Below, piece by piece: positions 15,493 to 61,349 of a stretch of DNA of 64,000 bases (within the stretch, counting starts at the first letter, position 1; each line of letters opens with the position of its first letter). Source of the DNA: Candidatus Eiseniibacteriota bacterium (GTDB lineage Bacteria; Eisenbacteria; RBG-16-71-46); NCBI GenBank assembly GCA_963707915.1, contig OY970178.1:3094103-3158102 (forward strand), read 5' to 3'. A program made the position numbers and the translations under genes. Under the pieces are notes generated by a model. It was not told the DNA's origin, made no database searches, and worked only from the letters and a program-made list of their open reading frames with translations.

Positions 15493-15555
15493 CCACGTCC
15501 GGCGCCCTGCCCGCACCGGCCGCCCCGGGGATCAGGTGGCCGGTGCGGCGCGCCC

Positions 15556-19238: not shown

Positions 19239-19867
19239 CTGGATCCTTCCTTGCGGGGGCCCGGCGCGCGGCGCGCGCCCGCCACCCTGAAGTCGCCGAG
19301 CATGTCCTGGGCGAGCAGCGAGACCAGCCGTTCCGTGCTCATGACCCGTCCCCAGCCGAACAGCGTCTCGTGGTCCTCGCCGGAGCGGAAGTGCACACCG
19401 GCCCACAGGACCCGGCCGCTCGCGGCCTCGACCAGCCGCAGCGTGCCGCCCACGGCGGGCACGTCCAGGTCGCCGCTGCGCAACCGTCCGCTCTCGAGCA
19501 CGCTGCCCATCAGCAGGTAGGGGGCGCGCAGGGCCTCGCCCAGCTCGCGGACCTGCGCCGGCGTGAGCGAGCCGCCCGAACGGATGCCCAGCGAGTCCAT
19601 CGCCTCGTCCACCTGCCCGGGCTCGGCCATCTCGAGGGCGCCGCTGGCGACCAGCTGGGCGAAGAACACCTTGCTGAAGAGCGCGCCCTGCTCCTCGCGG
19701 CCCGCGAGGTTCTCGAACGGCACGAGCGCGGCGCGCGGGTGGTCCGCGGGCACGGTGCCTCCGGCGGAGCGACGCAGGGCCGGTGCGCTCCCGGCGCACA
19801 GCACCGCCAGGCCGGCGAGGACGGCGAGCCGCAGCCCGATCGCGATGCGCCCGTGACGTCGAGCCAT
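19235..19867 (-). CDS. lipoprotein with an LpoB/CsgG-like (TolB-N-like) fold
   Basis: Signal/lipobox region ...LAVLCAGSAP, then the motif AALVPFENLAGREEQG. Paralog of the next gene. 4-nt overlap with the downstream gene. Confidence 0.6.
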   Translation of the reverse strand: MARRHGRIAIGLRLAVLAGLAVLCAGSAPALRRSAGGTVPADHPRAALVPFENLAGREEQGALFSKVFFAQLVASGALEMAEPGQVDEAMDSLGIRSGGSLTPAQVRELGEALRAPYLLMGSVLESGRLRSGDLDVPAVGGTLRLVEAASGRVLWAGVHFRSGEDHETLFGWGRVMSTERLVSLLAQDMLGDFRVAGARRAPGPRKEGSR

Positions 19868-19869
19868 GG

Positions 19870-20460
19870 TCAGAACGCCCTCCCGCGCAGCCGGGCCACG
19901 AGCTCGTCGCAGGCGTCCTGCGTCAGCCGTCCCAGCGAGCGCGAACTCTGGCCGAGGACCGGGATGCGGCTCTTGCCGCGCTTCGCGATCGAGGACCGCC
20001 AGACCACGTTCCCGGTGTTGGCGTCCAGCAGCTCCGCGTCGAACGACAGGACCGGGATGTCGCCGTTCTCCGTGCGCTGCATGGTGTACTCGCTGACCGC
20101 GCCGCGCAGCACGCCGGTGGCTCCCAGCCGGAGGGCCACCTCCTTGAGCTTCTGCAGGTCATACGTCCCGTCCGTCTCCGGCATGACGTTGTCCTTCAGC
20201 AGGGCGGTGCGGAACTCCTCGGGCTGCACGATCTGGTAGCGGTCCGTCATGATCAGCGAGGTGATGAAGGCGCGCGTGACGCGCGGTCCGGCCAGCCCCT
20301 CGCTGCTCAGGTTGGTGAACGGCAGCACGGCGATCCTGGTGTAGAAGGCCATGTCCGCGTCGGGATTCAGGTAGACCCGGGAGACCGGGGCGCAGGAGAG
20401 CAGGAGCAGGCCCAGGGCGGCGGCCGCCATGCGTGCCAGAGGATGGTGCTTCCCGGCCAT
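19870..20460 (-). CDS. lipoprotein with an LpoB/CsgG-like fold (paralog of 19235..19867)
   Basis: Lipobox LLLSCAP, then RIAVLPFTNLSSEGLAG, a motif typical of the LpoB/CsgG/GNA1162 lipoprotein fold. Confidence 0.65.
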   Translation of the reverse strand: MAGKHHPLARMAAAALGLLLLSCAPVSRVYLNPDADMAFYTRIAVLPFTNLSSEGLAGPRVTRAFITSLIMTDRYQIVQPEEFRTALLKDNVMPETDGTYDLQKLKEVALRLGATGVLRGAVSEYTMQRTENGDIPVLSFDAELLDANTGNVVWRSSIAKRGKSRIPVLGQSSRSLGRLTQDACDELVARLRGRAF

Positions 20461-20461
20461 G

Positions 20462-22111
20462 CTACCTCCAGAGACTCTGGGACAAGGTCGCGCTCACCTG
20501 CCGGGCGCGGGTGGGAAGACCCGGGTCCGCCTGAGTGTAGCGAATCGTGGCGTGCAGGTCGCGGTTCAATGCCACGGCGAGCCAGGCGCCGTAGGCCTCA
20601 CGGCCGGCCGTGAGCGACGTGCCGGGGTCGCGCAGTTGCTGGTTCGCGCGGGTGTAGGTGCCGCTCGCCTGGACGGTGCGCGAGGGGGTCCACTGCACGC
20701 TGGCCTGCAGCGTCGAGCGGTCGGGCGCGTTGCGCACGAAGCCCCCGGCGCGGCCCCAGCTGCCGCTCGCCTGCAGCTTCTCCGAGGCCCGCCAGTCGAG
20801 GCTCGTCGTGTAGGTGGTCGAGGCCGGGCCGTCGCCCCGCAGCGTCGCGCCGGTGCGGTAGCGCCGCAGGTTCGCATTGAGGGTGACGGTGCGCAGCGGC
20901 ACCGCGCGCAGGCCGGCGGCGGTCTGCAGCGTCACCAGGGTCGCGGCCGGGCCGGTTTCGAGGCCCGCGCTGGGGCGGTCGGCCCTGGAGAGCGAGGCCT
21001 CGCCGAAGGCGTCGAACCCCTTCGAGAGCCGCATCCGCGTGTTCGAGCGGATGCTCTGGACCGGGCGGGCGCGGTCGCCGGGGAGCCAGTTCCACGACTG
21101 GTTCGCGCTCGCTCCCAACCTCCACCCGGGCCGGGCGTCGCCCTCGGCCGAGGCCGACGTGCTCAGGAAGCTCTCGGTCTCCTCGCTGCCCGCGACGTTG
21201 ACGCTGCGCACTCCGCCGCCGCCGGACAACTGCACCGCCTTCCAGGGCCGGTGGATGACGCTGAGTGAGCCGTCGTGATCGACCTCGGTCGTGGTGGCGA
21301 ACTGCGTGGTGCCCACGCTCCGGAAGCTGTAGGCGAGACTGGCAGAGGTCCGCTTGGAGATCGCCAGCCCCCCGTTCGCGGACGCGCTGTGCACGCGCGA
21401 GGTGGCGTCATGGGCCCCGTCGACCTGCCTGCGCGACTGGTTGTAGTCGTACTGGAGGACGGCATTCGCACGCCGGTTCTCGAGGCGCACGGTCGAGCCG
21501 GCGTTGACGTTCTCCTCGCTCCCGGTCCGCCGCCGCGCGCTGCGGTCCTCGTTGGCCAGGTCGCCGTAGCCCGCGTGGAGGTTCAGCCGCCCCAGGTCGT
21601 AGTTGGCCATCAGGCTGCGCCTCACGGCCGCTGTGCCCGGGAACGGGCCGCTCGCATCCTGGTTGCGACGGTTCCACGAGGCCGACAGCTGGGGAAGCCC
21701 GGCCCGCTGGAAGTAGCCCGTCAGGTTGGTCTCCTGCTGGCGGGTCGTGAGGTTGCGCGAATCGACGACCGTGATCGGCCGGTAGGAGCCGAACAGCCCG
21801 AACAGCGGATGGGCCAGGCGCAGGGAGCCCTGCGGGAGGATCTGGCGGTCGGGTCGTCCGATGGTGCGCTGGTCGGTGAACTGGAACCGGGACGAGAGCT
21901 CGTAGGCCTTGCGGAAGCGGCGGGAGTAGTCGAGTTGCACGGAGGTGAGCCACCATTCCACGTCGTTGGCCGGGTCCAGCAGGCTGAGCTTCGAGTATTG
22001 CACCTCGGCGACTCCCCGGATCTTCTGCTGGGCGTCAGCGGGCCCGGCGAGCAGAACGGCCGCCATCGATGCCGCCACCAGCCCCGCCCCCAGCGCTCTT
22101 CGCCGCATCAT
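20462..22111 (-). CDS. outer-membrane beta-barrel protein
   Basis: Start MMRRRALGAGLVAASMAAVLLAGPADA. 549 aa rich in alternating strands and in Ser/Thr/Asn/Gln/Tyr. Start overlaps the upstream cytochrome stop. Confidence 0.6.
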   Translation of the reverse strand: MMRRRALGAGLVAASMAAVLLAGPADAQQKIRGVAEVQYSKLSLLDPANDVEWWLTSVQLDYSRRFRKAYELSSRFQFTDQRTIGRPDRQILPQGSLRLAHPLFGLFGSYRPITVVDSRNLTTRQQETNLTGYFQRAGLPQLSASWNRRNQDASGPFPGTAAVRRSLMANYDLGRLNLHAGYGDLANEDRSARRRTGSEENVNAGSTVRLENRRANAVLQYDYNQSRRQVDGAHDATSRVHSASANGGLAISKRTSASLAYSFRSVGTTQFATTTEVDHDGSLSVIHRPWKAVQLSGGGGVRSVNVAGSEETESFLSTSASAEGDARPGWRLGASANQSWNWLPGDRARPVQSIRSNTRMRLSKGFDAFGEASLSRADRPSAGLETGPAATLVTLQTAAGLRAVPLRTVTLNANLRRYRTGATLRGDGPASTTYTTSLDWRASEKLQASGSWGRAGGFVRNAPDRSTLQASVQWTPSRTVQASGTYTRANQQLRDPGTSLTAGREAYGAWLAVALNRDLHATIRYTQADPGLPTRARQVSATLSQSLWR

Positions 22112-23511
22112 CGAGCATAGTTGATCGTGTACGACTCGGGATCGTGACACGTCGGCGAGCAGGTGCCGCCGCTGGCCGTCTCGGTGTAGGAGCCGATGCC
22201 CGGGTTGCGCCCCGTGGCGATGAGATGGCGCTGGTCGGGCGAGCCGTGCGTGACGTGGCAGGCGTAACAGGGGACGTGCTCCTCGCCGACGTGCTCGGCG
22301 TGGCCCTTGTCCACCCCGGGCTTGTTGAACCGCGAGAGGGCCCTCGTCGCCTCGGGCGCGCCCGGGTCCGCGTAGACTTCGGGGGTGTGGCAGGCGAAGC
22401 AGATCTCGCCGGTGCTCATCGTCCGCGGCTGGGGCGAGGCGGTGTAGGGCTGCGTCAGGATGTAGCGGTACGAGGAGCCGTGCGGCCCGCGCGTGGACCC
22501 GACGAAATCGCTGCCGTGGCAATCGCCGCAGCGCGTGAGGCTGGCGGCGCTCCAGCCGGGCGCGAACGCGCCGGCCGGGATCCCCGGGTTGCGGCCCGCG
22601 GCCTCGACCGGGTGGAACGACTCGTTCGCCGGGTTCAGGACCAGGGCCAGGTCGGTCTGCCCCGAGGGCTGGCTGGTCCAGGACGAATGGCACTTGAAGC
22701 AGAGCTGGTATTCCGCCACCGGCGCGCTCAGCGTATCGGAGCCGGCGGCGAACGTGAACGTGGGGGGCGTGCCCGCCGGGCCGTTCTGCACCAGCACCCG
22801 ACTCACGCCCAGGTTGGTGCGCGAGAGCCCGGGGGCGGCCGGCGTGGCGGGCCGGTCGGCGCCGGCCACGTGCGGGTTGTGGCAGTCGACGCACTCGGAG
22901 TGGCGCGCGTTCGCGGGCGAGACCCCGAAGTCGGCGGGATCGGATTCGGCCGGTCCCTTGTGGCGCCCGGAGTAGAGCCGCACCGGGTGCCGGTAGACCT
23001 TGGCGAGATCGGCGCCGATGTTGGTGGAAGCGGGCGCGCCGTCATGGCAGGTGAGGCAGAGAGTCTCCTCGCGCCCGATGGCGAGCGCCGGGATCAGCCC
23101 GCCGGCGTCCGACCAGCCGTGCGGGTCGTGGCAGTTGAGGCACTTGCCCTCCGCGCCCGGCTCGGTGCGTGGCGGGGGGGTGGGCCCCGGCCAGGCGGTC
23201 CCGGTGGCCGTGCCGTGAGAGGCGCCGGAGTACACCCAGGGCCCCGCGTAGCTGCCGGCCGTCCAGGGCTTGTCGTGGCAGCGGTCGCAAAGCGAGTTGT
23301 CGTCCGGGCCGAGCAGCGCGTGCCCGTAGACGACATCCCCCTGGCCGTGCACGGTGTGGCACTGGTCGCAGTCGCCCGCGTGCGCGCCCTGCGCCAGGAG
23401 CTTCTCGACGCCGGCGGGGGTGCGATAGGGATGCAGGGGCTGCGCTCCAGTCGCCAGCAGGCACACCAACGCCAGCCCCGCGAGGCTCGAGACGAGATCC
23501 CTCGGTCGCAT
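22108..23511 (-). CDS. multiheme c-type cytochrome (about 9 CxxCH plus 1 CX3CH)
   Basis: Start MRPRDLVSSLAGLALVCLLATGAQP, possibly a lipoprotein. Motifs CDQCH, CDRCH, CLNCH, CLTCH, CVDCH, CFKCH, CGDCH, CFACH, CYACH and CSPTCH. Confidence 0.8.
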   Translation of the reverse strand: MRPRDLVSSLAGLALVCLLATGAQPLHPYRTPAGVEKLLAQGAHAGDCDQCHTVHGQGDVVYGHALLGPDDNSLCDRCHDKPWTAGSYAGPWVYSGASHGTATGTAWPGPTPPPRTEPGAEGKCLNCHDPHGWSDAGGLIPALAIGREETLCLTCHDGAPASTNIGADLAKVYRHPVRLYSGRHKGPAESDPADFGVSPANARHSECVDCHNPHVAGADRPATPAAPGLSRTNLGVSRVLVQNGPAGTPPTFTFAAGSDTLSAPVAEYQLCFKCHSSWTSQPSGQTDLALVLNPANESFHPVEAAGRNPGIPAGAFAPGWSAASLTRCGDCHGSDFVGSTRGPHGSSYRYILTQPYTASPQPRTMSTGEICFACHTPEVYADPGAPEATRALSRFNKPGVDKGHAEHVGEEHVPCYACHVTHGSPDQRHLIATGRNPGIGSYTETASGGTCSPTCHDPESYTINYAR

Positions 23512-23591
23512 GCTGCCCAGATTAGCCCAGCGCGTCGAAAACCTCACGCTGCCCACCCGTCCCGGCCTGGAAGTGGATGCCCGATGGACAT

Positions 23592-23622
23592 CCGGCCGAC
23601 TCCGGGATGCGGAGCCGGCCGG
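23592..23622 (-). terminator. GC-rich hairpin just downstream of the OmcS-like gene (possible partial terminator or attenuator)
   Basis: 13-bp stem with one mismatch (CCGGCCGACTCCG / CGGAGCCGGCCGG) and a 5-nt loop. No U-tract follows. Confidence 0.35.
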
Positions 23623-23644
23623 ACCTTGCCCGATGTTGCGAGGC

Positions 23645-24718
23645 TCAGGGGATGATCGCGACCGGGTTGCCGGCCGGGAAGCTGCCCTGGGTGTGGCACT
23701 GACGGCACAGGTCGCGGTACTCGCCGCCGTCACCCTGCTCGGTGATGTCGGTCGGGGTTGCGGGCGTGTTGGGACCGGTCGTGGTGTTGTCCACGAACCA
23801 GATCAGCCCGAAGCCGTTCTGGTTGCCGTGCGACTTGTGGCAGGTGAAGCACGACGGGGTCGCGGTGGCGGTCGAACCGTCCCACTGGCCCAGCCCGTCC
23901 ATCAGCTTGACCTTGTGCGTGTGCAGGTTCAGCTGGGTGCGGTTGCTGGTGCTGAGGTCCACGCCGGCCGTCGGGTGACGGACCACGCCGTCGACGGTCT
24001 CGATGTTGGCGTCCGCCGGTGAGCCGTGGAAGGTCGTGTGGCAGGCCTGGCACCATGCGCCGTAGGCGCTCGTGGTCTGGCTCGGCTCCTGGTAGTTGAC
24101 GTTGTTCCAGCCGTAGCCGCGCGCGGCCGCCTCGTAGACGTCCTTCGTGTTGGTGGGCGTCCCGCCGATCTCGTAGGAGACGAACCGGTTGTAGAAGGCG
24201 TTGGTGCTGCGCGTGCTGCTCTTCAGGTTGCGGTAGTTCGCCGCGCCGTGCGCGGAGTGGCAGTCCGCACAACCCAGGCCGCTCGCGCTCACGGGCGAAG
24301 TCGTGCCGCTGAAGCCCGGCGGCGTGGCGGTCGACCACAGCGTGTGGCCGTCACCGACGGAGTAGCCGGCGTCGTTCGTGTAGCCGTGGCCCGACTCGAC
24401 GTTCAGCGCACCGGCGAGGCGGCCGTTCAGCGGGGCCGCGCTCGTGGTGCCGAGCACGTCCGGAACGTCCGTGCGACCGTCGTGGCACGAGAGGCACACC
24501 GCGTTGACCGACGACTGGCGCAGCAGCTTCGCGAACGGAGCGCCGGCGCCCGGAGGATTCAGCTCGCCGGTCTCGGGGTAGGTGTGCGACTGCTGGCCGT
24601 GCATCACGTGGCAATCGCTGCAGACCAGCAACTGGCCGACGTGATAGTCGCCCGACAACGCGACGGTCGTGAGACCGGCGAGGGCCAGGACGACGAGGGA
24701 GAGCAACAGGCGCTTCAT
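23645..24718 (-). CDS. omcS-like: OmcS-family hexaheme c-type cytochrome (nanowire-type extracellular cytochrome)
   Basis: Signal peptide MKRLLLSLVVLALAGLTTVALS and six CxxCH motifs. Motif-by-motif resemblance to Geobacter OmcS as recalled from memory: CSDCHVMHG vs CEGCHTMHN; CLSCHDG vs CLNCHQH; WCQACHTTFHGSP vs WCANCHTDIHNS; CFTCHKSHG vs CLSCHRAHA; C-terminal LCRQCH vs LCNKCH. Long Ser/Thr/Gly-rich inter-heme spacers. Confidence 0.75.
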   Translation of the reverse strand: MKRLLLSLVVLALAGLTTVALSGDYHVGQLLVCSDCHVMHGQQSHTYPETGELNPPGAGAPFAKLLRQSSVNAVCLSCHDGRTDVPDVLGTTSAAPLNGRLAGALNVESGHGYTNDAGYSVGDGHTLWSTATPPGFSGTTSPVSASGLGCADCHSAHGAANYRNLKSSTRSTNAFYNRFVSYEIGGTPTNTKDVYEAAARGYGWNNVNYQEPSQTTSAYGAWCQACHTTFHGSPADANIETVDGVVRHPTAGVDLSTSNRTQLNLHTHKVKLMDGLGQWDGSTATATPSCFTCHKSHGNQNGFGLIWFVDNTTTGPNTPATPTDITEQGDGGEYRDLCRQCHTQGSFPAGNPVAIIP

Positions 24719-25276
24719 GAGTTTGCTCCTCGTGGTGGTGGGGGATGCTTCGGGTTCGAATCTTCAGGAGTCGGGTCTGAAGGTAACGAGCGAGTTGCGC
24801 TGACCCCCCTTTCGAACCCGGGAGTGGGAACGAGTGCTGGTCCAGCGGCGTTTCGCAGGACCGTGCTCGATTCGAACGGACCTTCCTGAGCCTTCGGATC
24901 GGGCGGGAGGCGGGAGGCGTTCTGCCTCCCTCCGTCACCCTGCGTCTCGACCACGAGTGACTCAGGACGTTGAGACGGGAACGATGATACGGTAATGTGA
25001 ACTGCGCGTCTAGGTGAAAGTACTGATGCGAGGTCCGCAGTCCACCTGTGGTCTGGTGTTCTAAAGTACCATGTGCCATCTAGATACGTAGACTAATGGC
25101 TATCAACGACATGAGTCCGCTTCTGGGAACGGATGGTCCTTACCGGCGCTTGCCGAATCAACTGGAGTCTGAAATCCTCCGTCGACTAGGCCATTTCCCG
25201 CTCTTGTGTTCCATAAAGAAACGATTGGTTGGATGGTCTTCCGCCCGTCGAGTGACCCATAATTCCGAGGGAAGTC

Positions 25277-27487
25277 GTGAATCTTGGTGACCTGCTGCTG
25301 AAGCTCGCATTCCTGCTCGCGGTCCCGGCCGCCTTCCTCTTCTTCCAGGACGTCCGGGGCCGCCGCGGGCCCGCAGCGGCTGAATGGATGTTCGGGCTCC
25401 ACTCGGCCGCCATCCTCGGCGCGGTCGTCACGCTCTGGGCGCTCTTCCTCGGCCACCGCTTCGAGTACGCCTACATCGCCGAGTACAGTTCCCGCGCCCT
25501 CTCGCCCGCGCTCACCTTTGCGGCCTCCTGGGCCGGGCAGGAGGGCAGCATCCTGCTCTGGGCACTGCTCATGGCGCTGGTGGGCGTCGCCCTGATGCGG
25601 CAGCCGGGGCCGCTCTCCCGGCCGGCGATGTTCTTCGTCGCGCTCGCCCAGCTCGGCCTGCTGGTGCTGCTCCTGGTGCGCAGTCCGTTCCGCGTGAGCC
25701 ACGTCACCCCGGCGGACGGCCAGGGCCTGAACCCGCTGCTCGAGGATCCCTGGATGGTCGTCCATCCGCCGGTGCTCTTCGTGGGGTACGCGGCGATGGT
25801 GGCCCCCTTCGCCCTGGCGGGCGCCGCGCTGGTGCTCGGTCTGTGGCGCGAATGGAACCGCGCCGTTTGGCCCTGGGTGCTGTTCGCGGTGCTCTCGCTC
25901 GGAACCGGCATCGCCCTCGGCGGCATCTGGGCCTACAAGGTGCTGGGCTGGGGCGGCTACTGGGGCTGGGACCCGGTCGAGAACGCCTCGCTCGTGCCCT
26001 GGCTCGTCGCGGTCGCGCTCCTGCACGGCCTGTTCATCCAGAAGACCACCGGTGGGCTGGTGCGCAGCAACCTGCTCATGGCGTTCCTGGGATGGCTCAC
26101 CGTGCTCGGCGGGACCTACCTGACCCGCAGCGGCGTGCTGCAGGACTTCTCGGTCCACTCCTTCGCCGACTCGGGCCTCAACGTGCCGCTGATCGTCAAC
26201 CTGGCCGGCGCCCTGCTGATCGCGGCCGTGCTGCTGGCCTGGCGCTGGCGCGCGATCGAGTCGAGGCCCACCCGCTGGACCAGCGTCTCGCGCGAGGCCG
26301 CGCTGTGGGTCGGGCTCGTCACGGTGCTGGTCTTCGCGGCCATGGTGACCTTCGGCACGATCGCTCCGCTGCTCACCTCGCTGGCCGGCCGGCCCGCCAG
26401 CGTGCGCCCGTCGTTCTACCAGTCGATGAGCGTGCCGCTCGGCGTCCTGCTGGTGCTGGTCATGGCGGTCGCGCCGGCGCTGCGCTGGTCGCGGCAGGTG
26501 GGGTTCGGCTGGCTCACGGCGCTCGCCCCGGGGTTCCTGTGCGCGCTGCTGGCGTTCGGGGGCGCGCTCCTCACGGGCGTGCGGGACGGGGCGCACCTGG
26601 CGCTGCTCGCCACGACCGGGTTCGCCCTCGGGATCAACGCGTGGATGACCGTGAAGCTGTTCCGCCGCGGCTGGAGCTACGGCGCGGGCTACCTCGGGCA
26701 CGCGGGGCTCGCCATCATGATCCTGGGGATGGTGATGTCCACGGCGCTGGGACGCACCGAGCGCCTGACGCTGCGGACGGGCGAATCGGGGCAGGCCCTC
26801 GGCTACACGATCACCTACCGCGGAGACCATTTCGATCCGCGCGGTGGCCACCAGCTCGACGTGCTGGTGAGCCGCAAGGGCTGGAGCTTCGAGGCCCGCC
26901 CGCAGCTGCTGAAGATGCCGCAGGGCGAGGGCAGCATGCACAAGCCGGCCATCAGCGGCCGGCGCGAGCTCTACCTGTCGCCAGTGGACGTGCAGCGGCT
27001 GGAGAGCGACGCGGACCGGATCGTGTGGCTGCCGCAGGGCCAGGCGGTGCCGGCGCTGGGACTGACCTGGACCTTCGTGGGGTTCCGGATGGAGTCGCAC
27101 GAGGCCATGCAGGTCCTGGCCGACATCGATGTCCGCCGGAGCGGGCCGGCGGTGCGGATCTCCCCCGGGATGCGCGCCGACGCGCAGGGGACCCGGGCGC
27201 TGCCGGTCGAGGTGGCCGGCCTGGGGCAGGTCACGGTCGAACGGATCGACGCGGATCGCAAGCGGGTGGGTGTGCTGCTCCCGGGTGCCGGGGCGGCGAG
27301 CCAGGCGGTGCTGGAGTTCAGCACCAAGCCGCTGGTCAACCTGGTCTGGGTGGGCGCGCTCATCACCCTGCTCGGGGCCGCGCTGGCCGGCCTGCGCCGT
27401 GCCATCGAGGTCGTGCCTGGCGCGCGACGCCGGCGGGCCGCCGCCGCTCCGGCCGCTCCAGCCGTCCCGACCGGCGGGGCCCGGTAA
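25277..27487 (+). CDS. ccmF: cytochrome c-type biogenesis protein CcmF/NrfE (heme lyase)
   Basis: GTG start with GAGGGAAG upstream. Polytopic membrane protein with the Trp-rich WGGYWGWDPVEN motif typical of CcmF. Confidence 0.85.
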   Translation: MNLGDLLLKLAFLLAVPAAFLFFQDVRGRRGPAAAEWMFGLHSAAILGAVVTLWALFLGHRFEYAYIAEYSSRALSPALTFAASWAGQEGSILLWALLMALVGVALMRQPGPLSRPAMFFVALAQLGLLVLLLVRSPFRVSHVTPADGQGLNPLLEDPWMVVHPPVLFVGYAAMVAPFALAGAALVLGLWREWNRAVWPWVLFAVLSLGTGIALGGIWAYKVLGWGGYWGWDPVENASLVPWLVAVALLHGLFIQKTTGGLVRSNLLMAFLGWLTVLGGTYLTRSGVLQDFSVHSFADSGLNVPLIVNLAGALLIAAVLLAWRWRAIESRPTRWTSVSREAALWVGLVTVLVFAAMVTFGTIAPLLTSLAGRPASVRPSFYQSMSVPLGVLLVLVMAVAPALRWSRQVGFGWLTALAPGFLCALLAFGGALLTGVRDGAHLALLATTGFALGINAWMTVKLFRRGWSYGAGYLGHAGLAIMILGMVMSTALGRTERLTLRTGESGQALGYTITYRGDHFDPRGGHQLDVLVSRKGWSFEARPQLLKMPQGEGSMHKPAISGRRELYLSPVDVQRLESDADRIVWLPQGQAVPALGLTWTFVGFRMESHEAMQVLADIDVRRSGPAVRISPGMRADAQGTRALPVEVAGLGQVTVERIDADRKRVGVLLPGAGAASQAVLEFSTKPLVNLVWVGALITLLGAALAGLRRAIEVVPGARRRRAAAAPAAPAVPTGGAR

Positions 27488-31344: not shown

Positions 31345-32604
31345 GTGCGCGAATCCTCCTTGAAGACCATCCTCTTCGTCGATGACAGCCCGGCCGCTTC
31401 GTACGGTGGATCCAAGCGCGTCCTGGTGGACATCGCCACCCGTCTCGATCGTTCCGAGTGGCGCCCATACGCCGCCTTCCGTACCGACGGTCCGTACCGG
31501 GCCGAACTCGACGCCGCGGGGATCCCCACGCTGGTCTATGGCAGGCTCGCGCAGCGCTCCCGGTCGGTGGCGTTCCCGGCCTGGCTCCGGTGGCTCGGGC
31601 TCGACACCGCCCCCGAGGGGACGGTGCGCCGGGCCGCCCTGCGCCGCGCCCTCTGGAACGGGCGCGCGGCCTTCCGCTGCCTGTGGCCGGACCGCTTGCT
31701 GGCGCGCCGGCTGTGCGCCGCGCTGCCCCGCGACGTCGCGGTGGTCCACTACAACTCCCGCATGTCGGACGGCTGCGAGTGGGCGCACGTGGCGCGGTGG
31801 CTCGGCGCCGCGCTGGTGATCCACGATCACGAGGTGTGGCGGGAGCCGACCAGCCTGTATCGCCGCGTGGCGCGCCGGGCCGCGTGCCTGGTCTGCCTGA
31901 CGGAGGAGCGCGCGGGGAAGCTGCGCGAGTTCTGCGGAAGCGCCATCCGGGCGACGGTGGTCTCCAACGGGGTCGATCTGGACGCGCTCCAGGCCCGCCG
32001 CGAGCCGGACAAGGTCGCCGCGCTCCGGGCGGAACTGCGGGGCCGCCCGCTGCTCGTGACGGCCGCTCACTACCGGCCCTGGAAGGGGCAGCTGCAGGCC
32101 CTCGACGCGGCGGCGCGGCTGGTCGCCGAGGGCCGCTCGTTCCTCTGGAGGTTCTGCGGGCACCCGTCGGACCCGGCCTACTTCGAGGCCCTCCAGGCCC
32201 GGGTCGGGGCCCTCGGCCTCGGGAGCCACGTCGTCATCGAGCCGCACCGGGACGACGTGCCGGCGCTGCTCGAGGCCGCCGACGTCGCGGTGCACACCTC
32301 GATCGAGACCGAGCCGTTCAGCCTCTCCATCCTCGAGGCCATGGGCTTCGGCGTTGCCGTCGTCGCGGCGCGTGCCGGCGGACACACGGAGGTCGTCCGC
32401 CACGGCGTGGAGGGTCTCCTCTACGCCCCGCGGGACGTGGCGGATCTGGCGGAGGCGCTCGCCGCGCTGCTCGCGGACCCGGCGCTTCGGCAGCGGCTCG
32501 GCGCGGCCGGCCTGGAGCGCGTTCGCACCTCCTACTCCCTCGCCACCCAGGTGGAGCGCCTCGAAGCGATCTACCGGGAGGCCGTCCTCGCGGGAGCCGG
32601 CTAG
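31345..32604 (+). CDS. glycosyltransferase family 4 (GT-B fold)
   Basis: C-terminal GT1/GT4 motif (EAMGFGVAVVAARAGGHTEVV...GLLY). Start is GTG 31345 or TTG 31360. The TAG stop lies inside the IS target duplication. Confidence 0.8.
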   Translation: MRESSLKTILFVDDSPAASYGGSKRVLVDIATRLDRSEWRPYAAFRTDGPYRAELDAAGIPTLVYGRLAQRSRSVAFPAWLRWLGLDTAPEGTVRRAALRRALWNGRAAFRCLWPDRLLARRLCAALPRDVAVVHYNSRMSDGCEWAHVARWLGAALVIHDHEVWREPTSLYRRVARRAACLVCLTEERAGKLREFCGSAIRATVVSNGVDLDALQARREPDKVAALRAELRGRPLLVTAAHYRPWKGQLQALDAAARLVAEGRSFLWRFCGHPSDPAYFEALQARVGALGLGSHVVIEPHRDDVPALLEAADVAVHTSIETEPFSLSILEAMGFGVAVVAARAGGHTEVVRHGVEGLLYAPRDVADLAEALAALLADPALRQRLGAAGLERVRTSYSLATQVERLEAIYREAVLAGAG

Positions 32605-32605
32605 C
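32600..32605. repeat. target-site duplication GCTAGC (left copy)
   Basis: Identical 6-mer flanks both ends of the IS element; IS481-type elements duplicate NCTAGN. Confidence 0.7.
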
Positions 32606-33666
32606 TGTGGAGTCTCAGGACGTTGTTCTCACCCGGGGTCGCAACCGACTGAAGGGTGGTAGGCCGTCCAGACTACCGTGTGGACGTCTCTGGTTGTAGT
32701 AGCGAAGCCAGCGGGGCAGGACGCGGGCCCGGACCTCGGAGGTCAGGTAGGCGGCCCCGTAGGCCCACTCGCGGATCAGGGTCTGGATGAAGCGCTCGGC
32801 CTTGCCGTTCGTCCTCGGGCGGTAGGGCCGCGTACGTTTGTGGACCAAGCGCAGCCGTTCCACCTCGTGAGCAAAGCAGCGCGCGAGGTAGCCCGAGCCG
32901 TTGTCACTGAGGATTCGGCGGATGCGGATGCCCAAGGTGCGGAACCAGGCCACAGCACGACGCAGGAACGCTGCCGAGGTCACGCCGGTCTCGTCCCGCA
33001 GCACCTCGGCATAGGCGATCCGGCTGCGGTCGTCGATGGCGACGTGCACGTAGTCCCAGCCCACCCGATGACCCCGTCGCCGGCGGTCTCCGGTGATGCG
33101 GTGACCGTAGAAGCCACTGATCCGCCCCAGTTTCTTGACGTCGAAGTGGAGCAGGTCCCCCGGGCGACGATGCTGGTAGCGGTTCGCGGGCTCCTGCGGC
33201 TCGAGCTTCTGGAGCCGTTCCAGCCCGGCGCGTTTGAGCACCCGCGCCACCGTTGCCCGCGGACGCTTCAGGTCCCGGGCGATCTGCGGCCCGGTCATCC
33301 TCGTGCGCCGCAGCAGCAGGATCATCTCCCGCCATTCGATCGGGGTCGCGTGGGGGTGGCGCCGAGGCCGCGAGCTGCGGTCCTGCAGGCTGGCCGAGTC
33401 CTCGGCCTGGTAGCGGCCCAGCCACTTGTGGGCCGTCCGGCGGCTGATCCCTGCGGCCGTGGCCGCTCGGGTCACGCTCCAGCCCGACTCCCGTACCCGG
33501 CCAACAAGCAGTGCTCGACTGGCAGGGCAGGTCCGTGCTCCACTGTGGAGGTTCATCCGGGGTTCCTCGCTGGTCAGACGTTGACGGCTTCGAACACCAC
33601 CAACATCTGTCAGAAGGACCCCGGTTGAACAGTCTCAACCTGTGAACAACCTAGTGAGACTCCACA
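32606..33666 (-). mobile_element. IS481-family insertion sequence, about 1061 bp, imperfect terminal inverted repeats TGTGGAGTCTCA...GTTGTTC
   Basis: Left end TGTGGAGTCTCAGGACGTTGTTCTCAC and right end (reverse complement) TGTGGAGTCTCACTAGGTTGTTCACAG share 13/13 terminal nucleotides plus a GTTGTTC block. A single DDE transposase lies between them. Flanked by GCTAGC direct repeats. Confidence 0.8.
32615..33556 (-). CDS. IS481-family DDE transposase (integrase core domain)
   Basis: N-terminal HTH (SVTRAATAAGISRRTAHKWL), rve-like core (HFDVKKL...D...E) and a C-terminus typical of IS481 transposases. Confidence 0.9.
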   Translation of the reverse strand: MNLHSGARTCPASRALLVGRVRESGWSVTRAATAAGISRRTAHKWLGRYQAEDSASLQDRSSRPRRHPHATPIEWREMILLLRRTRMTGPQIARDLKRPRATVARVLKRAGLERLQKLEPQEPANRYQHRRPGDLLHFDVKKLGRISGFYGHRITGDRRRRGHRVGWDYVHVAIDDRSRIAYAEVLRDETGVTSAAFLRRAVAWFRTLGIRIRRILSDNGSGYLARCFAHEVERLRLVHKRTRPYRPRTNGKAERFIQTLIREWAYGAAYLTSEVRARVLPRWLRYYNQRRPHGSLDGLPPFSRLRPRVRTTS

Positions 33667-33672
33667 GCTAGC
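33667..33672. repeat. target-site duplication GCTAGC (right copy)
   Basis: Matches 32600-32605. Confidence 0.7.
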
Positions 33673-34624
33673 GGCCGACGAGCCGTCCGAGGGCCCTGCT
33701 CAGGACCTTCCCCGGGGCGAAGTCGTAGCGCAGGCTGGTGAGCAGGCAGCGCAATGCCGCCCCGGGGGCGTGGCGGCGGTCCAGGTGGTCGCGGCCCAGG
33801 GCCCACATGCGGCGGGCGTAGATCCGGCGATAGAGCGGGTCGCCCGTGTCGGCGAGCGGCCGGTGGTGGCGCGCGAACACCTGCTCGTACGCGCTCAGCA
33901 GCCGGGCGAAATCGGCGGTGATGCTCCCCGGGGTCTTGACGTAGCGGTACAGCGGGCCGGGCGCGTAGGCGGCGATCACTCCGGAGCGCACCATCCGGAT
34001 GCAGAGCTCCCAGTCCTCGTAACAGCGGAACGCGGGATCGTAGCCGCCGAGCCGCAGCAGCATCCCGCGCTCCAGCAGCACCGTCCGCTCCACGAAGCAG
34101 TGCTCGAGCAGGGCGGGGAGCCAGCCCGAGGTCGGGCCCGCCGGCAGAGCGCTCGCGCGGAACTGCTCGCCTTCGGCGTCCACGCGCACGATGTCGCTGA
34201 TGCACCAGCCGGCCCCGGGCGTGCGCCCGACCGCGGCCAGCGCCCGTTCCAGTGCGCGCGGATCGAGCTCGTCGTCCGCGTCGAGCGGCATGATCCACTC
34301 GCCGTGCGCGCGCCCGACCGCGGCGTTGCGCGCGGCGGAGACGCCGGCGTTGCGCTGCCGGATGACGGCGGCGACCCTGCCCTCCGCCGCGAGCCGCTCC
34401 AGCAGCTGCGGGGTGCCGTCGGTGGAGCCGTCGTCCACGGCGATCACCTCCAGCGCCGGGACGGTCTGGACCTCCACCGAGCGGACCGCGCGCTCCAGCG
34501 TGTTCGCGCGGTCGTGGACCGGGATGCACACGCTGATCGAGCCCCGCACCGACGGTGCCGGGGGGGCCGGGGTCCCGGGCGTGGCCGCGGCGGGACGCCG
34601 GGACGGGTGGGGGCTGTCTTCCAT
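33668..34624 (-). CDS. glycosyltransferase family 2
   Basis: ISVCIPVHDRANTLERAVRSV...VIAVDDGSTDGT...DADD motifs (GT-A DXD). The stop (CTA on + strand) lies in the right copy of the IS target duplication. Confidence 0.8.
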   Translation of the reverse strand: MEDSPHPSRRPAAATPGTPAPPAPSVRGSISVCIPVHDRANTLERAVRSVEVQTVPALEVIAVDDGSTDGTPQLLERLAAEGRVAAVIRQRNAGVSAARNAAVGRAHGEWIMPLDADDELDPRALERALAAVGRTPGAGWCISDIVRVDAEGEQFRASALPAGPTSGWLPALLEHCFVERTVLLERGMLLRLGGYDPAFRCYEDWELCIRMVRSGVIAAYAPGPLYRYVKTPGSITADFARLLSAYEQVFARHHRPLADTGDPLYRRIYARRMWALGRDHLDRRHAPGAALRCLLTSLRYDFAPGKVLSRALGRLVGR

Positions 34625-35084
34625 GTCCGTTCGCCTCGCGCCGTGATCGGTCGGTTCGCTCGCGGGCGTCCGGGCGCGCGGAAGACCCGACCGAAGCCCT
34701 GCCGAAGCGGGAGCACCCCGACCGGACTCGCTGCCGGGCTCGACAACACCGTGTGGCGCCGGTGCGTCACTCCCGGGCGTGGGAGGGGAGAAGAGCGGAC
34801 CCGGATACGCGTGTCAAGGGCGGCGTCTCACCGGGTTGCCGGCTCCGGCCCGGATCCCCGCGCGGGGCCGCGGGGGGACCCGTAGAGTGTGGCGGGGCCA
34901 TGCATTCCGCCTTGGGAGCGGTCCAGACTTGTGCGCCGCCCGGGGCCGGTGCTCCCGGGGGCGGGGGTCCGCACTCTCAACCCCTTGCGCCGCAACCCCG
35001 GTTGCTCCAACATGCGGCGGCACGCTAGGTGCAATCGTGGTGAGCCCTTTCCCGAACCACAGTCCCGGCTGAGGCTGGCGACCC

Positions 35085-37052
35085 TTGTCCCGAGGACCCA
35101 TGCACGTCATTCGTGATCGACAGCCGGCCGTCGTCGTCCGGAACGCCTTGATGAGGATCCTGCCGGTGCTGGGCTGCCTGCTCCTCGCGGCGGGCCCGAG
35201 CGCCGCGGCGACCTACTACGTGAGCACCGCCGGCAACGACGCGAACGTCGGCACCCAGTCCTTGCCGTGGCGCACGCTGGCCAAGGCCAATGCCACGCTC
35301 GTGGCCGGGGACGCCTGCTGGATCGCCGCCGGGACGTACGCCGACCCGATCCAGCCCGTCAACTCCGGCACGGGCTACCGCCCCGGCGGGATGATCAGCT
35401 ACGTCGGCTCGATCGCGAACCCCGGGGGGGTCGTCGTTCCCTCGCTCGTGCTGCGGGGCCAGTACGTGAGCGTCAAGGGCGTGACCGTCACCATGCCGTC
35501 GACGTCACACCTGGGAGCCATCCTCTCGGGCACCCGCGACTCCCTGTCCTTCTGCACCCTCAACAACGAGTGGGTGCAGATCGACGGCGGCAGCGACAAC
35601 CTGATGGCGAACTGCACCATCAACGCGGGGCATTTCTTCTTCGACGGGCTGGGTACCGCCGACACGACCCCGTTCGTCGTGCGCGACACCATCCGGAACT
35701 GCACCTTCAACCTGAACCCGACCGACCCTGCCCACACCTCCAACATCACGATGAGCTGGACCGGGGTGAAGTCGTGCCTCATCGACAGCTCCCGCTTCAA
35801 CATCACGGCGGGGACGGCCGTCCCCGGTGGCGGCTTCACCAAGCTGTTCTACAGCCAGCGGAACCGGATCGCGGACTGCAAGTGGACGATGACCCTGAAC
35901 ACCACCGGGAGCTGCGACGAGTGCTGGAGCTTCCGGATCCGCGACATCAGCCGCTTCAACGTCTTCGAGCGGGACACGTTCTACATGGACGGCGCCGGCG
36001 GTGCGCTGCACGTGGGGTTCTACGCGGCCTGCACGGGGGCGGTGGGGAACAACCTGGCCAACACCAACAACAAGTTCGACCACTGCCTGTGGAAGATCCC
36101 GGTCCAGACCCAGATCGGCGGGGCCGTGGTCTTCCAGGCCCCCGGGACCGCCGACACGCTGGACCACTGCACCATCATCTCGGGGGTCGATCCCGCGATC
36201 GCGTTCAAGGGCGACGCCGCCACCGTCAACCCGAACTCGCTGGTCATCGACCACTGCACGTTCGTCAGCTTCGGGCCCGAGGGCCGGGTGTTCGACAACA
36301 GCGACGGGTCGGGCGTGGCGCCGGGCGGGGCGAACGCGTTCACCAACTCGATCTTCTACGCCGCTGCCGCCGCTCCGACGCGGGCGCCGTACTGGCTCCG
36401 CTACCCGACGGGCGTGGCCTCGGATCGCAACCTGTTCTACTCGCAGGGCGGGTCGGGACGCGTGCTCGATCTCGGATTCGCGGACTACCACTCGCTCACC
36501 CAGGCCTGTACGGACCACGGATACGACTGCAATTCCGTCTTCGGGAACCCGGCGTTCGCCGTCTCGAGTTCGGTCGCGGCCTTCGACCCGCGCCTGCTGT
36601 CGGGCTCCGCGGCGATCGGCCGGGGGGCGGGCGGGAGCGACATCGGCGCGTTCCCTTTCGTCCCCGGCGGCGCTGACCTGACCCCTCCGGCCACGGTCAC
36701 GAACCTGGCGGTCGTGCAGGTGGGCGTCGACTACGCGCTGCTCGGCTGGACCGCCCCGGGCGACAACGGCACCACGGGCACGGTCGCCGCCTACGACCTG
36801 CGCACCTCGACGCAGCCCATCACCGCGGCCAACTTCGCCGCCGCGACCGCGGTGGCGGTGGCGCCCGCGATCCTGCCGGCGGGATCGGCCCAGAGCTACG
36901 CGGCCACCGGGCTCACCGCATCGACGCCGTACTACTTCGCGCTCAAGGCGCGCGACGCGGCCGGCAACTGGTCCACGGTCAGCAACGTGCCCACGACCAC
37001 CACGACCGCGACGGACCAGGTGCCGCCGGCGCGGATCACCGACCTCCACTAG
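35085..37052 (+). CDS. secreted right-handed parallel beta-helix (pectin-lyase-fold, DUF1565-like) protein with a C-terminal Ig/FN3-like domain
   Basis: Signal peptide, N-terminal YYVSTAGNDANVGTQSLPWRTLAKAN signature, many NxT/Cys-containing beta-helix rungs, Thr-rich C-terminus. The exact start is ambiguous between 35085 and internal Met codons. Confidence 0.65.
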   Translation: MSRGPMHVIRDRQPAVVVRNALMRILPVLGCLLLAAGPSAAATYYVSTAGNDANVGTQSLPWRTLAKANATLVAGDACWIAAGTYADPIQPVNSGTGYRPGGMISYVGSIANPGGVVVPSLVLRGQYVSVKGVTVTMPSTSHLGAILSGTRDSLSFCTLNNEWVQIDGGSDNLMANCTINAGHFFFDGLGTADTTPFVVRDTIRNCTFNLNPTDPAHTSNITMSWTGVKSCLIDSSRFNITAGTAVPGGGFTKLFYSQRNRIADCKWTMTLNTTGSCDECWSFRIRDISRFNVFERDTFYMDGAGGALHVGFYAACTGAVGNNLANTNNKFDHCLWKIPVQTQIGGAVVFQAPGTADTLDHCTIISGVDPAIAFKGDAATVNPNSLVIDHCTFVSFGPEGRVFDNSDGSGVAPGGANAFTNSIFYAAAAAPTRAPYWLRYPTGVASDRNLFYSQGGSGRVLDLGFADYHSLTQACTDHGYDCNSVFGNPAFAVSSSVAAFDPRLLSGSAAIGRGAGGSDIGAFPFVPGGADLTPPATVTNLAVVQVGVDYALLGWTAPGDNGTTGTVAAYDLRTSTQPITAANFAAATAVAVAPAILPAGSAQSYAATGLTASTPYYFALKARDAAGNWSTVSNVPTTTTTATDQVPPARITDLH

Positions 37053-37131
37053 GGGCGGGTCGCCGGCCGAAGAACCCGGGCCGGCGGAGGCCGGGACGCC
37101 CGCACGCAGCACCGTGCGGTGGCGCGCGGTC

Positions 37132-61277: not shown

Positions 61278-61349
61278 TGGTGCGCCGCCTAGGACTTGAA
61301 CCTAGAACCTACTGATCAAGAGACTCTGATCGCCGCCAGCACGCAGCGG
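61278..61349 (-). other. degenerate tRNA-like remnant: intact T-arm, 3' acceptor strand and encoded CCA, with a collapsed D-arm (possible integration-site scar)
   Basis: Minus-strand reading ...CTAGG TTCAAGT CCTAG GCGGCGC A CCA (canonical T-loop, 5-bp T-stem, 7-nt acceptor strand, discriminator, CCA). The 5' strand CCGCTGC pairs 6/7 with the acceptor. Only 18 nt precede a GATCA/TGATC stem with an 8-nt loop, so no proper D-arm or anticodon loop. Confidence 0.35.

What the first reader, a model, noticed from the sequence alone, without database searches (positions are those of the whole stretch)
32600..33672. IS481-family element inserted exactly in a CTAG shared by the stop codons of two convergent glycosyltransferase genes
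Removing the IS and one GCTAGC copy reconstructs ...GCCGGCTAGCGGCC.... The + strand GT4 gene ends with TAG. The minus-strand GT2 gene ends with the complementary CTA of the same palindrome, a 4-bp convergent stop overlap. The insertion preserved both reading frames. It now separates the two genes by 1 kb and places outward-facing IS ends next to both. Together with the DUF2723 glycosyltransferase and the beta-helix protein, this marks a surface-glycan or EPS locus undergoing IS-mediated change.
Basis: seen in the sequence. Interest (0 to 1): 0.55.

Follow-up and report, generated by a model that had tools for sequence, protein, structure and literature searches.

The report
IS481-family insertion at shared stop codons
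A 1,061-bp mobile element of the well-known IS481 family has landed in the four bases CTAG that served as the stop signal of two genes facing each other, and because it copies its target on both sides neither gene is damaged; this is a tidy example of behaviour already described for this family.

Summary
Window 32606-33666 is a complete 1,061-bp insertion sequence. It has 26-nt imperfect terminal inverted repeats (TGTGGAGTCTCA...), one 313-aa DDE transposase gene on the minus strand, and a perfect 6-bp target duplication, GCTAGC. The transposase passes NCBIfam's IS481 equivalog cut-off.

A 100% identical copy lies in a different context on another assembly, flanked by CCTAGC. Related copies show NCTAGN on both sides in 33 of 39 resolvable cases.

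Removing the IS and one repeat makes the GT4 gene (+) and GT2 gene (-) end in one shared CTAG. Orthologous loci in five relatives keep the convergent GT2/GT4 pair with no IS, but with 34-126 bp spacers, so no sequenced empty allele shows the overlap.

Both genes stay intact automatically, because the duplicated hexamer carries TAG on both strands. This was already reported for ISRe46 in Rhodococcus equi. At least two relatives sit between convergent stop codons in the same way.

The "EPS locus undergoing IS-mediated change" reading is not supported. The DUF2723 gene is 17 kb away, and the insertion changes no coding sequence.

Verdict: a new member of a known kind, of low interest.

The parts
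31345..32604 (+). GT4-family glycosyltransferase gene (419 aa). Its TAG stop at 32602-32604 lies inside the left copy of the target duplication.
   Evidence: Pfam Glycos_transf_1 (5e-31) and Glyco_transf_4. The C-terminus aligns with orthologues to within 2 residues of the end.
32600..32605 (.). Left copy of the 6-bp target-site duplication, GCTAGC.
   Evidence: Sequence. Identical hexamer at 33667-33672. The second IS copy is flanked by CCTAGC on both sides.
32606..33666 (-). Complete IS481-family insertion sequence, 1,061 bp.
   Evidence: 100% identical over its whole length to L001 787-1847, with homology ending exactly at both termini. Boundaries confirmed by script.
32606..32631 (.). Transposase-distal terminal inverted repeat, TGTGGAGTCTCAGGACGTTGTTCTCA. 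It contains the transposase TGA stop at 32615-32617.
   Evidence: (I1) and 25: 22 of 26 positions match the other end. The motif ...CAGGACGTTG resembles the published ISLxc2 and ISRe46 repeats.
32615..33556 (-). Transposase gene, 313 aa, a single ORF. Candidate catalytic residues are D139 (HFDVK), D218 (SDNGS) and E254 (GKAERF).
   Evidence: NCBIfam NF033577 IS481 equivalog, 285.7 bits against cut-off 224. Pfam PF13011, PF00665 and PF13683. Translation and motif positions.
33546..33630 (-). Leader hairpin whose 3' arm pairs the Shine-Dalgarno sequence (GAGGAA) and the AUG of the transposase mRNA.
   Evidence: Minimum free energy -61 kcal/mol, z = -4.4 against 200 shuffles. Analogous start-codon-sequestering stems occur in all relatives folded. 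2 of 8 basal pairs show compensatory changes.
33641..33666 (.). Transposase-proximal terminal inverted repeat (reverse complement TGTGGAGTCTCACTAGGTTGTTCACA). It carries an internal CTAG at 33651-33654.
   Evidence: This exact 28-nt end is found in 9 JGI metagenome contigs.
33667..33672 (.). Right copy of the target-site duplication, GCTAGC.
   Evidence: Sequence.
33668..34624 (-). GT2-family glycosyltransferase gene (318 aa). Its stop (CTA on the + strand, 33668-33670) lies inside the right copy of the duplication.
   Evidence: Pfam Glycos_transf_2, 8e-30. Orthologues are 59-74% identical and end after the same conserved GR, followed by a variable 3-27-residue tail.

Best explanation
A young, intact and probably still active IS481-family insertion sequence transposed by simple insertion into the palindromic tetranucleotide CTAG. 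At that point the GT4 gene (+ strand) and the GT2 gene (- strand) ended in overlapping TAG stop codons.

Shown here:
- The element's identity, exact limits and family.
- Its NCTAGN target rule.
- The integrity of both flanking genes.
- The absence of the IS from orthologous loci.

Mechanism, inferred from family knowledge: the DDE transposase makes cuts staggered by 6 bp, centred on CTAG. Repair duplicates GCTAGC. Because CTAG reads TAG on both strands, the left copy keeps GT4's stop and the right copy keeps GT2's stop, so the insertion is neutral for coding.

In this 72% G+C genome CTAG is four-fold depleted. In the window it occurs only at gene ends or outside gene-like frames. An NCTAGN-specific element is therefore channelled to harmless sites, and selection removes the remainder. 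Insertions between convergent stops are a recurrent outcome of this.

Inferred consequences:
- The two genes are now 1,067 bp further apart.
- Read-through from GT2 enters the transposase gene in sense, but a stable leader hairpin sequesters its ribosome-binding site and AUG.
- Read-through from GT4 is antisense to the transposase.
- Any transcription leaving the IS would be antisense to the glycosyltransferase genes.
For: Identity and family: NCBIfam IS481 equivalog above its cut-off, IS3 model far below its own. Pfam LZ_Tnp_IS481 + rve + rve_3. 1,061 bp, one ORF, repeats starting TGT.

Mobility: a 100%-identical copy sits beside a phage-type integrase and excisionase on another assembly, with TSD CCTAGC.

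Target rule:
- 33 of 39 resolvable relatives in GTDB genomes have CTAG in both flanks, and 26 have perfect 6-bp duplications.
- All 9 metagenome contigs sharing the 28-nt end are NCTAGN-flanked.
- The same rule is published for IS481, ISRe46 and ISLxc2.

Insertion rather than ancestral spacer: five relatives share the synteny ClpB-GT4 >< GT2 ... GGDEF and have no IS, with 34-126 bp spacers. GT2 and GT4 are 71-77% identical to their counterparts in these five loci, and GGDEF is 86.5% identical.

Genes intact: C-termini align with orthologues.

Recurrence: MetH >IS< PEP-utilising enzyme in Alloalcanivorax (L015), and EamA >IS< histidine kinase in a Coriobacteriales MAG (L037). In both, Pfam domains run to the TSD stop on both sides. 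By a crude ORF/GC3 test, double-stop sites are 6 of 35 insertions against 1 of 100 background CTAGs, Fisher p = 0.001.

CTAG rarity: 17 observed against 73 expected. No window CTAG lies in a gene-like frame other than as a stop.

Independent support for the junctions: short-read contigs of run ERR12037368 carrying GT2 and GT4 both end exactly at the last base of GCTAGC.

Leader hairpin.
Against: - No sequenced empty allele with the shared CTAG was found. An exact 30-mer of the reconstructed site has no match in JGI metagenomes, and the nearest orthologous loci have separate stops and spacers.
- Four of the six duplicated bases are dictated by the target rule, so only the two outer bases testify to a single insertion event. 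I estimate that two unrelated sites would agree at both about 1 time in 6. About 7 of 33 relatives do show unequal outer bases.
- The source genome is not among the GTDB representatives, so the copy number in this genome could not be counted.
- The enrichment at stop codons rests on a crude gene test and on non-independent copies. It cannot separate target preference from selection.
- No promoter or terminator consensus was found in or beside the IS. All transcriptional consequences are inference.
Confidence: 0.92

Rival explanations
1. The present junction is the product of IS-mediated rearrangement rather than one insertion. GT4 and GT2 originally had separate CTAG-containing stops with a short spacer, as in relatives. 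Two IS copies inserted, or one copy transposed intramolecularly, and recombination deleted the spacer. This left a single IS flanked by halves of two different duplications that happen to look alike.
For: Relatives have 34-126 bp spacers and none has overlapping stops. The window's GT2 has the shortest C-terminal tail of 8 homologues. Only the 2 outer TSD bases are informative. About 20% of related copies have CTAG on both sides with unequal outer bases, so such rearrangements do occur in this clade.
Against: Both outer bases match, G...C on each side. This scenario needs two insertions plus a recombination where one insertion suffices. Young multicopy sets have perfect duplications in 16 of 17 cases. 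The GT2 tail is variable among homologues, and two others also end within 3-6 residues of the same GR. Either way both stops pre-existed, because the target CTAG must be present before insertion, so both proteins are native.
Confidence: 0.05
2. The IS is placed here by an assembly error. A repeat collapsed or was mis-joined in a metagenome-assembled genome, and GT4 and GT2 are really adjacent without it.
For: The source appears to be a MAG; the same proteins occur on a 3.6-Mb ENA/NCBI contig. The IS occurs elsewhere in the same sample series, so the repeat exists to be misplaced.
Against: Perfect target duplication with the family's specific target sequence at both junctions. An independent short-read assembly breaks at exactly both junctions instead of joining GT4 to GT2. 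A misassembly would not create a 6-bp duplication.
Confidence: 0.02
3. The insertion is adaptive. The IS was retained because it rewires expression of the glycosyltransferase pair, for example by uncoupling convergent transcription or by supplying antisense RNA, so that it remodels a surface polysaccharide.
For: In B. pertussis, IS481 outward and read-through transcripts commonly run antisense into neighbours (PMC6161684). The locus does differ from relatives in gene content next to GT2.
Against: No coding change. No promoter-like site found. The same type of site is used by relatives between unrelated housekeeping genes such as MetH and a histidine kinase, which points to neutrality rather than a locus-specific benefit. 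ISs are generally over-represented between convergent genes because they are least intrusive there (PMC2942039). The DUF2723 gene is not part of the locus.
Confidence: 0.08

Closest known systems
IS481 of Bordetella pertussis (type element of the IS481 family)
   Same: Size of about 1 kb, a single DDE transposase ORF, terminal repeats beginning TGT, and a 6-bp duplication of NCTAGN (family knowledge; PMC3053399 and PMC3279416 found). The transposase matches the family equivalog model.
   Different: Sequence is distant; the best annotated plasmid relatives are only 49-52% identical. The host is an uncultured high-G+C diderm bacterium rather than Bordetella. Pin and Pout promoters are defined experimentally for IS481 and none could be recognised here.
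ISRe46 / TnRErm46 of Rhodococcus equi (PMC6794481)
   Same: An IS481-family element with NCTAGN duplications. [quoted passage not shown] This is the same principle as here.
   Different: ISRe46 carries cargo (erm(46)) and takes its own transposase stop from the duplication. Here the transposase stops at a TGA inside the terminal repeat (32615-32617), there is no cargo, and the duplication supplies stops to two genes at once, one on each strand.
ISLxc2 / ISLxx4 of Leifsonia xyli (PMC2516522)
   Same: 1.1-kb IS481-family elements with the NCTAGN target and a very similar terminal repeat: TGTGTTTCTCAGGGACGTTGGT there against TGTGGAGTCTCAGGACGTTGTT here.
   Different: The ISLxc2 transposase stop lies in the host target site, whereas here it lies inside the IS. 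No protein comparison was made.
General pattern of ISs enriched between convergent genes (Plague 2010, PMC2942039)
   Same: The IS sits between two convergent genes, the least intrusive intergenic class.
   Different: Here there was no intergenic DNA at all. The target specificity for CTAG, not only selection, directs the element to the stop codons.

Membership tests
IS481 family of insertion sequences | Transposase matches the family-specific profile above its curated threshold and better than sister families (IS3, IS21). | tested here: met
   NCBIfam NF033577, 285.7 bits against cut-off 224. IS3 model 89 bits against 160; IS21 model 53 against 160. Pfam PF13011 LZ_Tnp_IS481, 61 bits against 22.
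IS481 family of insertion sequences | DDE catalytic core (rve fold) with conserved D, D, E motifs. | tested here: met
   Pfam rve and rve_3 hits. The motifs HFD139VK, SD218NGS and GKAE254RF are present. Assignment is by motif only; no activity was tested.
IS481 family of insertion sequences | A single transposase ORF without programmed frameshift. This distinguishes the family from IS3. | tested here: met
   One uninterrupted 313-aa ORF, 32615-33556, covers 89% of the element.
IS481 family of insertion sequences | Length about 1-1.3 kb, with terminal inverted repeats beginning 5'-TGT. | tested here: met
   1,061 bp. 26-nt repeats with 22 of 26 matches, both starting TGTGGAG.
IS481 family of insertion sequences | 6-bp target-site duplication with consensus NCTAGN. 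| tested here: met
   GCTAGC in the window and CCTAGC in L001. 33 of 39 relatives have CTAG on both sides and 26 are perfect 6-mers. 9 of 9 metagenome copies are NCTAGN-flanked.
IS481 family of insertion sequences | Evidence of mobility: identical copies at unrelated sites. | tested here: met
   The window and L001 copies are 100% identical over 1,061 bp with unrelated flanks. Copy number in the source genome could not be counted.
IS481 family of insertion sequences | Copy-out/paste-in transposition through a circular or junction intermediate, as presumed for the family. | not testable with these tools
   Requires detection of excised circles or IR-IR junctions in reads or by PCR.
   Only GT4 and GT2 are adjacent. 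The Polysacc_synt flippase and the 443-aa gene that precede GT2 in all five relatives have no tblastn match anywhere in the 64-kb window. The DUF2723/TMEM260-like gene lies at 13717-15492, separated by cytochrome, CcmF and ClpB genes.
GT4 and GT2 glycosyltransferase families (flanking genes) | Family-specific catalytic domains. | tested here: met
   PF00534 and PF13439 for 31345-32604; PF00535 for 33668-34624. No NCBIfam equivalog reaches its cut-off, so substrate and product are unknown.

The most novel reading that the evidence does not exclude
Elements of this IS481 clade may be more than merely tolerated at stop codons. They may be preferentially established at CTAGs formed by the overlapping TAG stops of convergent genes. 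Such a site would be a 'double-stop safe harbour': the 6-bp duplication regenerates both stops, convergent host transcription plus a conserved leader hairpin keeps the transposase silent, and the IS acts as a spacer between colliding transcription units. In high-G+C genomes, where CTAG is purged from coding frames, this would make the family nearly harmless and would help explain its abundance. The pilot count is 6 of 35 insertions at double-stop sites against 1 of 100 background CTAGs.
Probability: 0.3. Interest if true: 0.4.

Novelty: new member of a known kind. Interest (0 to 1): 0.2.

Why it matters
The practical value is mainly for annotation. The element is an unnamed IS481-family member, with at most 84% aa identity to anything in the GTDB representatives and about 50% to annotated plasmid copies. 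It should be masked and named, and the two glycosyltransferase genes should be annotated as intact.

It is also a clean illustration of how a palindromic, stop-codon-containing target (NCTAGN) combined with a 6-bp duplication makes insertions coding-neutral, here for two genes at once. If the pilot enrichment at double-stop sites holds in a proper genome-wide analysis, it would give a simple sequence-level explanation for the success of IS481-type elements in high-G+C bacteria. The insertion itself does not indicate any change in surface-glycan biosynthesis.

Tried and rejected
- Exact 30-mer of the reconstructed empty site in JGI metagenome contigs: no hit. No direct empty allele was obtained.
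- Genome-contig scan with the transposase, to count copies in the source genome: the source genome is not among the GTDB representatives. The best hit is 84% identical on a 4.3-kb 'Ca. Eisenbacteria' MAG contig.
- Megablast of the IS against plasmids: only 50-70-nt fragments. The protein search gives relatives at 52% identity or less.
- Viral contigs: no match to the IS end.
- Sigma-70 promoter and intrinsic-terminator scan of 32300-34000: nothing found. This is uninformative for an organism of unknown promoter type.
- Rfam scan of the whole window: no hits.
- Search for further IS copies or solo ends in the window: only the two real ends and one chance match.
- IS traces at the borders of the beta-helix gene segment that replaces the flippase: none.
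- My first boundary script over-extended the repeats into the palindromic duplication. It was replaced by one anchored on TG...CA.
Recounting shows the coding sequences including stops overlap by 4 bases, so the statement stands.
- IS3-family membership was considered and rejected.
Full report
**What is there.** At 32600-32606 the sequence reads GCC GGC TAG C|TGTGGAGTCTCAGGACGTTGTTCTCA... At 33641-33672 it reads ...TGTGAACAACCTAGTGAGACTCCACA|GCTAGC. The hexamer GCTAGC therefore occurs at 32600-32605 and at 33667-33672, and the two copies bracket a 1,061-bp segment, 32606-33666. The ends of that segment are the longest inverted repeat in the region: 32 nt at 88% including the palindromic hexamer, or 22 of 26 positions for the element proper. 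Inside lies one long ORF on the minus strand, 32615-33556, of 313 aa.

**Family.**
- The ORF product hits Pfam LZ_Tnp_IS481 (61 bits, cut-off 22), rve and rve_3.
- It passes the NCBIfam equivalog model for IS481-family transposases (NF033577, 285.7 bits, cut-off 224). It falls far below the IS3 and IS21 cut-offs.
- The usual DDE motifs are present: HFD139VK, SD218NGS and GKAE254RF.
- Size, the single ORF, the TGT-initial repeats and the 6-bp NCTAGN duplication all fit the family definition.
- The terminal repeat resembles those published for ISLxc2 and ISRe46.
- The nearest annotated plasmid-borne transposases are only 49-52% identical, for example ISBcen26. The nearest in GTDB species representatives is 84% identical, on a short contig of a 'Ca. 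Eisenbacteria' MAG. This is an unnamed member of the family.

**Mobility and target rule.** The exact transposase protein is also encoded on an unrelated 30-kb ENA contig (L001), next to a phage-type integrase and an excisionase-like gene. The two copies are 100% identical over all 1,061 bp. Similarity stops precisely at TGTGG...CCACA, and the second copy is flanked by CCTAGC on both sides.

I located the ends of 39 related copies from 57 genome loci (after removing one duplicate site):
- 33 have CTAG in both flanking hexamers, and 26 have a perfect 6-bp duplication.
- In the young copy sets (the window and L001 pair, a Solirubrobacteraceae MAG and an Acidobacteriota MAG), 16 of 17 copies have perfect duplications.
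- About 7 copies have CTAG on both sides but unequal outer bases. This is the signature of recombination between copies.

Nine JGI metagenome contigs contain the exact 28-nt transposase-proximal end. Every flank that can be read is NCTAGN. This is the published target of IS481, ISRe46 and ISLxc2.

**The flanking genes and the reconstructed site.** ORF 31345-32604 (+) is a GT4 glycosyltransferase and 33668-34624 (-) is a GT2 glycosyltransferase. GT4 ends ...A G A G * with TAG at 32602-32604. GT2 ends ...L V G R * with its stop at 33668-33670.

Deleting the IS and one hexamer gives GCCGGCTAGCGGCC. There the two coding sequences including stops overlap by CTAG, and the stop triplets share TA. A CTAG must exist before an NCTAGN-specific element can insert, and it is in frame as TAG for both genes. 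Both C-termini are therefore native under any scenario. Preservation of both frames follows automatically from duplicating a hexamer that reads TAG on both strands.

**IS-free alleles.** No close relative of the host is available. The next GT2 homologues are 59-74% identical. Five loci recovered from them (L002, L003, L005-L008) are clearly orthologous. CcmF, ClpB and GT4 lie on one side, and GGDEF (86.5% identical) and an MgtE-like gene on the other. In all of them GT2 and GT4 are convergent with no IS between them, so the 1-kb segment is an insertion. However, their stops are separate, with 34-126 bp of spacer. The window's GT2 lacks the short, variable C-terminal tail of its homologues. The shared CTAG is therefore a feature of this lineage, inferred from the duplication and not seen directly. 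An exact 30-mer of the empty site is absent from JGI metagenomes.

One indirect hint of an empty allele exists. In the Logan short-read assembly of run ERR12037368, the contig carrying GT2 (3,757 nt, gene end at 3,756) and the contig carrying GT4 (2,048 nt, gene end at 2,047) both stop exactly one base after the stop codon. That is the last base of GCTAGC. A k = 31 de Bruijn contig entering a plain repeat should run about 30 nt into it. A break exactly at the junction is what a mixture of occupied and empty sites would give. This is my inference, because the DNA of those contigs could not be read.

**Caveat on the duplication.** Four of its six bases are fixed by the target rule, so only the two outer bases testify to a single event. 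From the flank frequencies seen in relatives, I estimate that two independent sites would agree at both outer bases about one time in six. A two-insertion-plus-deletion history therefore cannot be excluded from the sequence alone. It is far less parsimonious, and I give it about 5%.

**Why this site.** CTAG occurs 17 times in the 64-kb window against 73 expected from dinucleotide-preserving shuffles. Apart from the three IS-associated sites, 5 of the other 14 are stops of gene-like ORFs. None lies inside a gene-like frame in any other way. An NCTAGN-specific element in this genome is thus confined to gene ends and non-coding DNA.

Among related copies, a crude ORF-length and GC3 test finds a gene-like ORF ending in the duplication's TAG on at least one side in 16 of 35 insertions, and on both sides in 6. 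For background CTAGs in the same loci the figures are 16 of 100 and 1 of 100, with Fisher p about 0.001 for each comparison.

Two double-stop cases were confirmed with Pfam:
- L015, Alloalcanivorax balearicus: methionine synthase MetH on one side and a PEP-utilising enzyme on the other.
- L037, a Coriobacteriales MAG: an EamA transporter and a histidine kinase.

In each case the C-terminal domains run up to the stop. The configuration in the window is therefore recurrent rather than singular. Target specificity and purifying selection cannot be separated with these data. The general excess of ISs between convergent genes is known (PMC2942039). The provision of a target gene's stop codon by an IS481-family duplication has been described for parB in R. 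equi (PMC6794481).

**Likely consequences (inferred).** Both neighbours point into the IS.
- Transcription leaving the IS, as Pin read-through and Pout do in B. pertussis (PMC6161684), could only be antisense to GT4 and GT2.
- No sigma-70-like promoter or intrinsic terminator is detectable. This says little for an organism of unknown promoter type.
- GT2 is on the same strand as the transposase gene and ends 111 nt upstream of its start codon (33668 against 33556), so GT2 read-through would enter it in sense.
- The 110-nt leader from the IS end to the AUG folds into a very stable structure (-61 kcal/mol, z = -4.4, 0 of 200 shuffles as stable). In it the Shine-Dalgarno sequence GAGGAA and the AUG are paired.
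- Every relative folded has an equivalent hairpin. In many, the conserved repeat motif GTTGTTCAT itself pairs with ATGAAC at the start codon. A consensus fold of eight relatives keeps an 8-bp basal stem with compensatory changes at two pairs.
- This resembles the classical protection of IS transposase genes from external transcription, which I cite from general knowledge of IS10- and IS50-type regulation and did not test here.

**Context claim.** The window encodes a TonB-dependent receptor, many multihaem cytochromes, CcmF and ClpB. The host is therefore a high-G+C diderm bacterium, not an actinomycete.

The DUF2723 (PF11028, TMEM260-like) gene is at 13717-15492, 17 kb from the IS and separated from it by those unrelated genes. 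In relatives, GT2 is preceded by a Wzx-type flippase and a 443-aa gene. Neither has a match anywhere in the window. A Pel9A-like beta-helix/FN3 gene of lower G+C (64-70%) lies there on the opposite strand, and it is absent from the relatives' loci. The locus has thus been remodelled, but that remodelling carries no IS ends. The IS insertion itself changes no protein. 'A surface-glycan locus undergoing IS-mediated change' is not supported.

**Verdict.** The finding is real and precisely described. The element is a new member of the IS481 family behaving exactly as the family is known to behave. Confidence in that explanation is 0.92, and interest is low at 0.2. The most novel reading the evidence leaves open is preferential establishment at double-stop CTAGs as a safe harbour. 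I rate it at about 0.3 probability and moderate interest if true.

Noticed in passing
window 33535-33666 (- strand); L009, L011, L015, L018, L020, L026, L029, L030, L037, L039, L041, L042, L044, L045, L050, L057 leaders: The transposase leader forms a long hairpin that pairs the Shine-Dalgarno sequence and the AUG (-61 kcal/mol, z = -4.4). In relatives the conserved repeat motif GTTGTTCAT itself pairs with the start codon region ATGAAC, with compensatory changes at 2 of 8 basal pairs. This probably blocks translation of read-through transcripts. I found no description of it for the IS481 family in the paper search.
   Followed up: partly
Logan contigs of ERR12037368 carrying window GT2 (33668-34624) and GT4 (31345-32604): Both short-read contigs end exactly at the last base of the GCTAGC duplication rather than about 30 nt inside the IS. 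This suggests that occupied and empty alleles coexist in that sample. The DNA was not readable, so this is inference from contig lengths only.
   Followed up: partly
window 34625-37131, compared with L002 2784-6004, L003 and L005-L008: Relatives carry a 443-aa gene and a Polysacc_synt (Wzx) flippase between GGDEF and GT2. The window has neither anywhere in 64 kb. Instead it has a lower-G+C Pel9A-like beta-helix/FN3 gene (35085-37052, +). No IS ends or repeats mark the replacement.
   Followed up: partly
whole window; CTAG sites listed: CTAG is four-fold under-represented (17 against 73 expected). It is found only at gene stops or outside gene-like frames, with small clusters in the AT-richer intergenic stretches 25010-25189 and 61289-61574. 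TAG appears to be an unusually common stop codon for a 72% G+C genome, judged from crude ORF calls.
   Followed up: partly
L015 (Alloalcanivorax balearicus NZ_ARXS01000014.1), L037 (Coriobacteriales MAG JACRBU010000067.1): Independent IS481-family relatives sit between convergent genes whose stops both lie in the NCTAGN flanks: MetH and a PEP-utilising enzyme in L015, an EamA transporter and a histidine kinase in L037. L030 and L042 look the same by ORF and GC3 criteria but have no Pfam hits.
   Followed up: yes
L009, L013, L028, L030, L037, L039, L050, L056; L067, L072, L073, L074: Copies with CTAG on both sides but different outer bases of the hexamers. This probably records recombination between IS copies, meaning genome rearrangements, as known for IS481 in Bordetella.
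   Followed up: no
L001 1-4833 (ENA ERZ25039554 contig_109331): The second, identical IS copy lies between a phage-type integrase gene and an HTH_17 excisionase-like gene. An 85-aa called gene (1786-2043, -) runs into the IS end, so that insertion may have altered a gene. The integrative element could be a vehicle for spreading the IS.
   Followed up: no
window 11094-27487: A large cluster of multihaem c-type cytochromes, including a 1,053-aa protein with 18 Paired_CXXCH matches, plus an NHL-repeat protein, a TMEM260-like O-mannosyltransferase homologue and CcmF. This suggests extracellular electron transfer. With the TonB-dependent receptor at 4330-8289, it shows the host is a diderm, not an actinomycete.
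   Followed up: no
window 33651-33654: The transposase-proximal terminal repeat itself contains an ACTAGG site 12 nt from the IS end. Copies of the element are therefore potential targets for further insertions of the same element.
   Followed up: no
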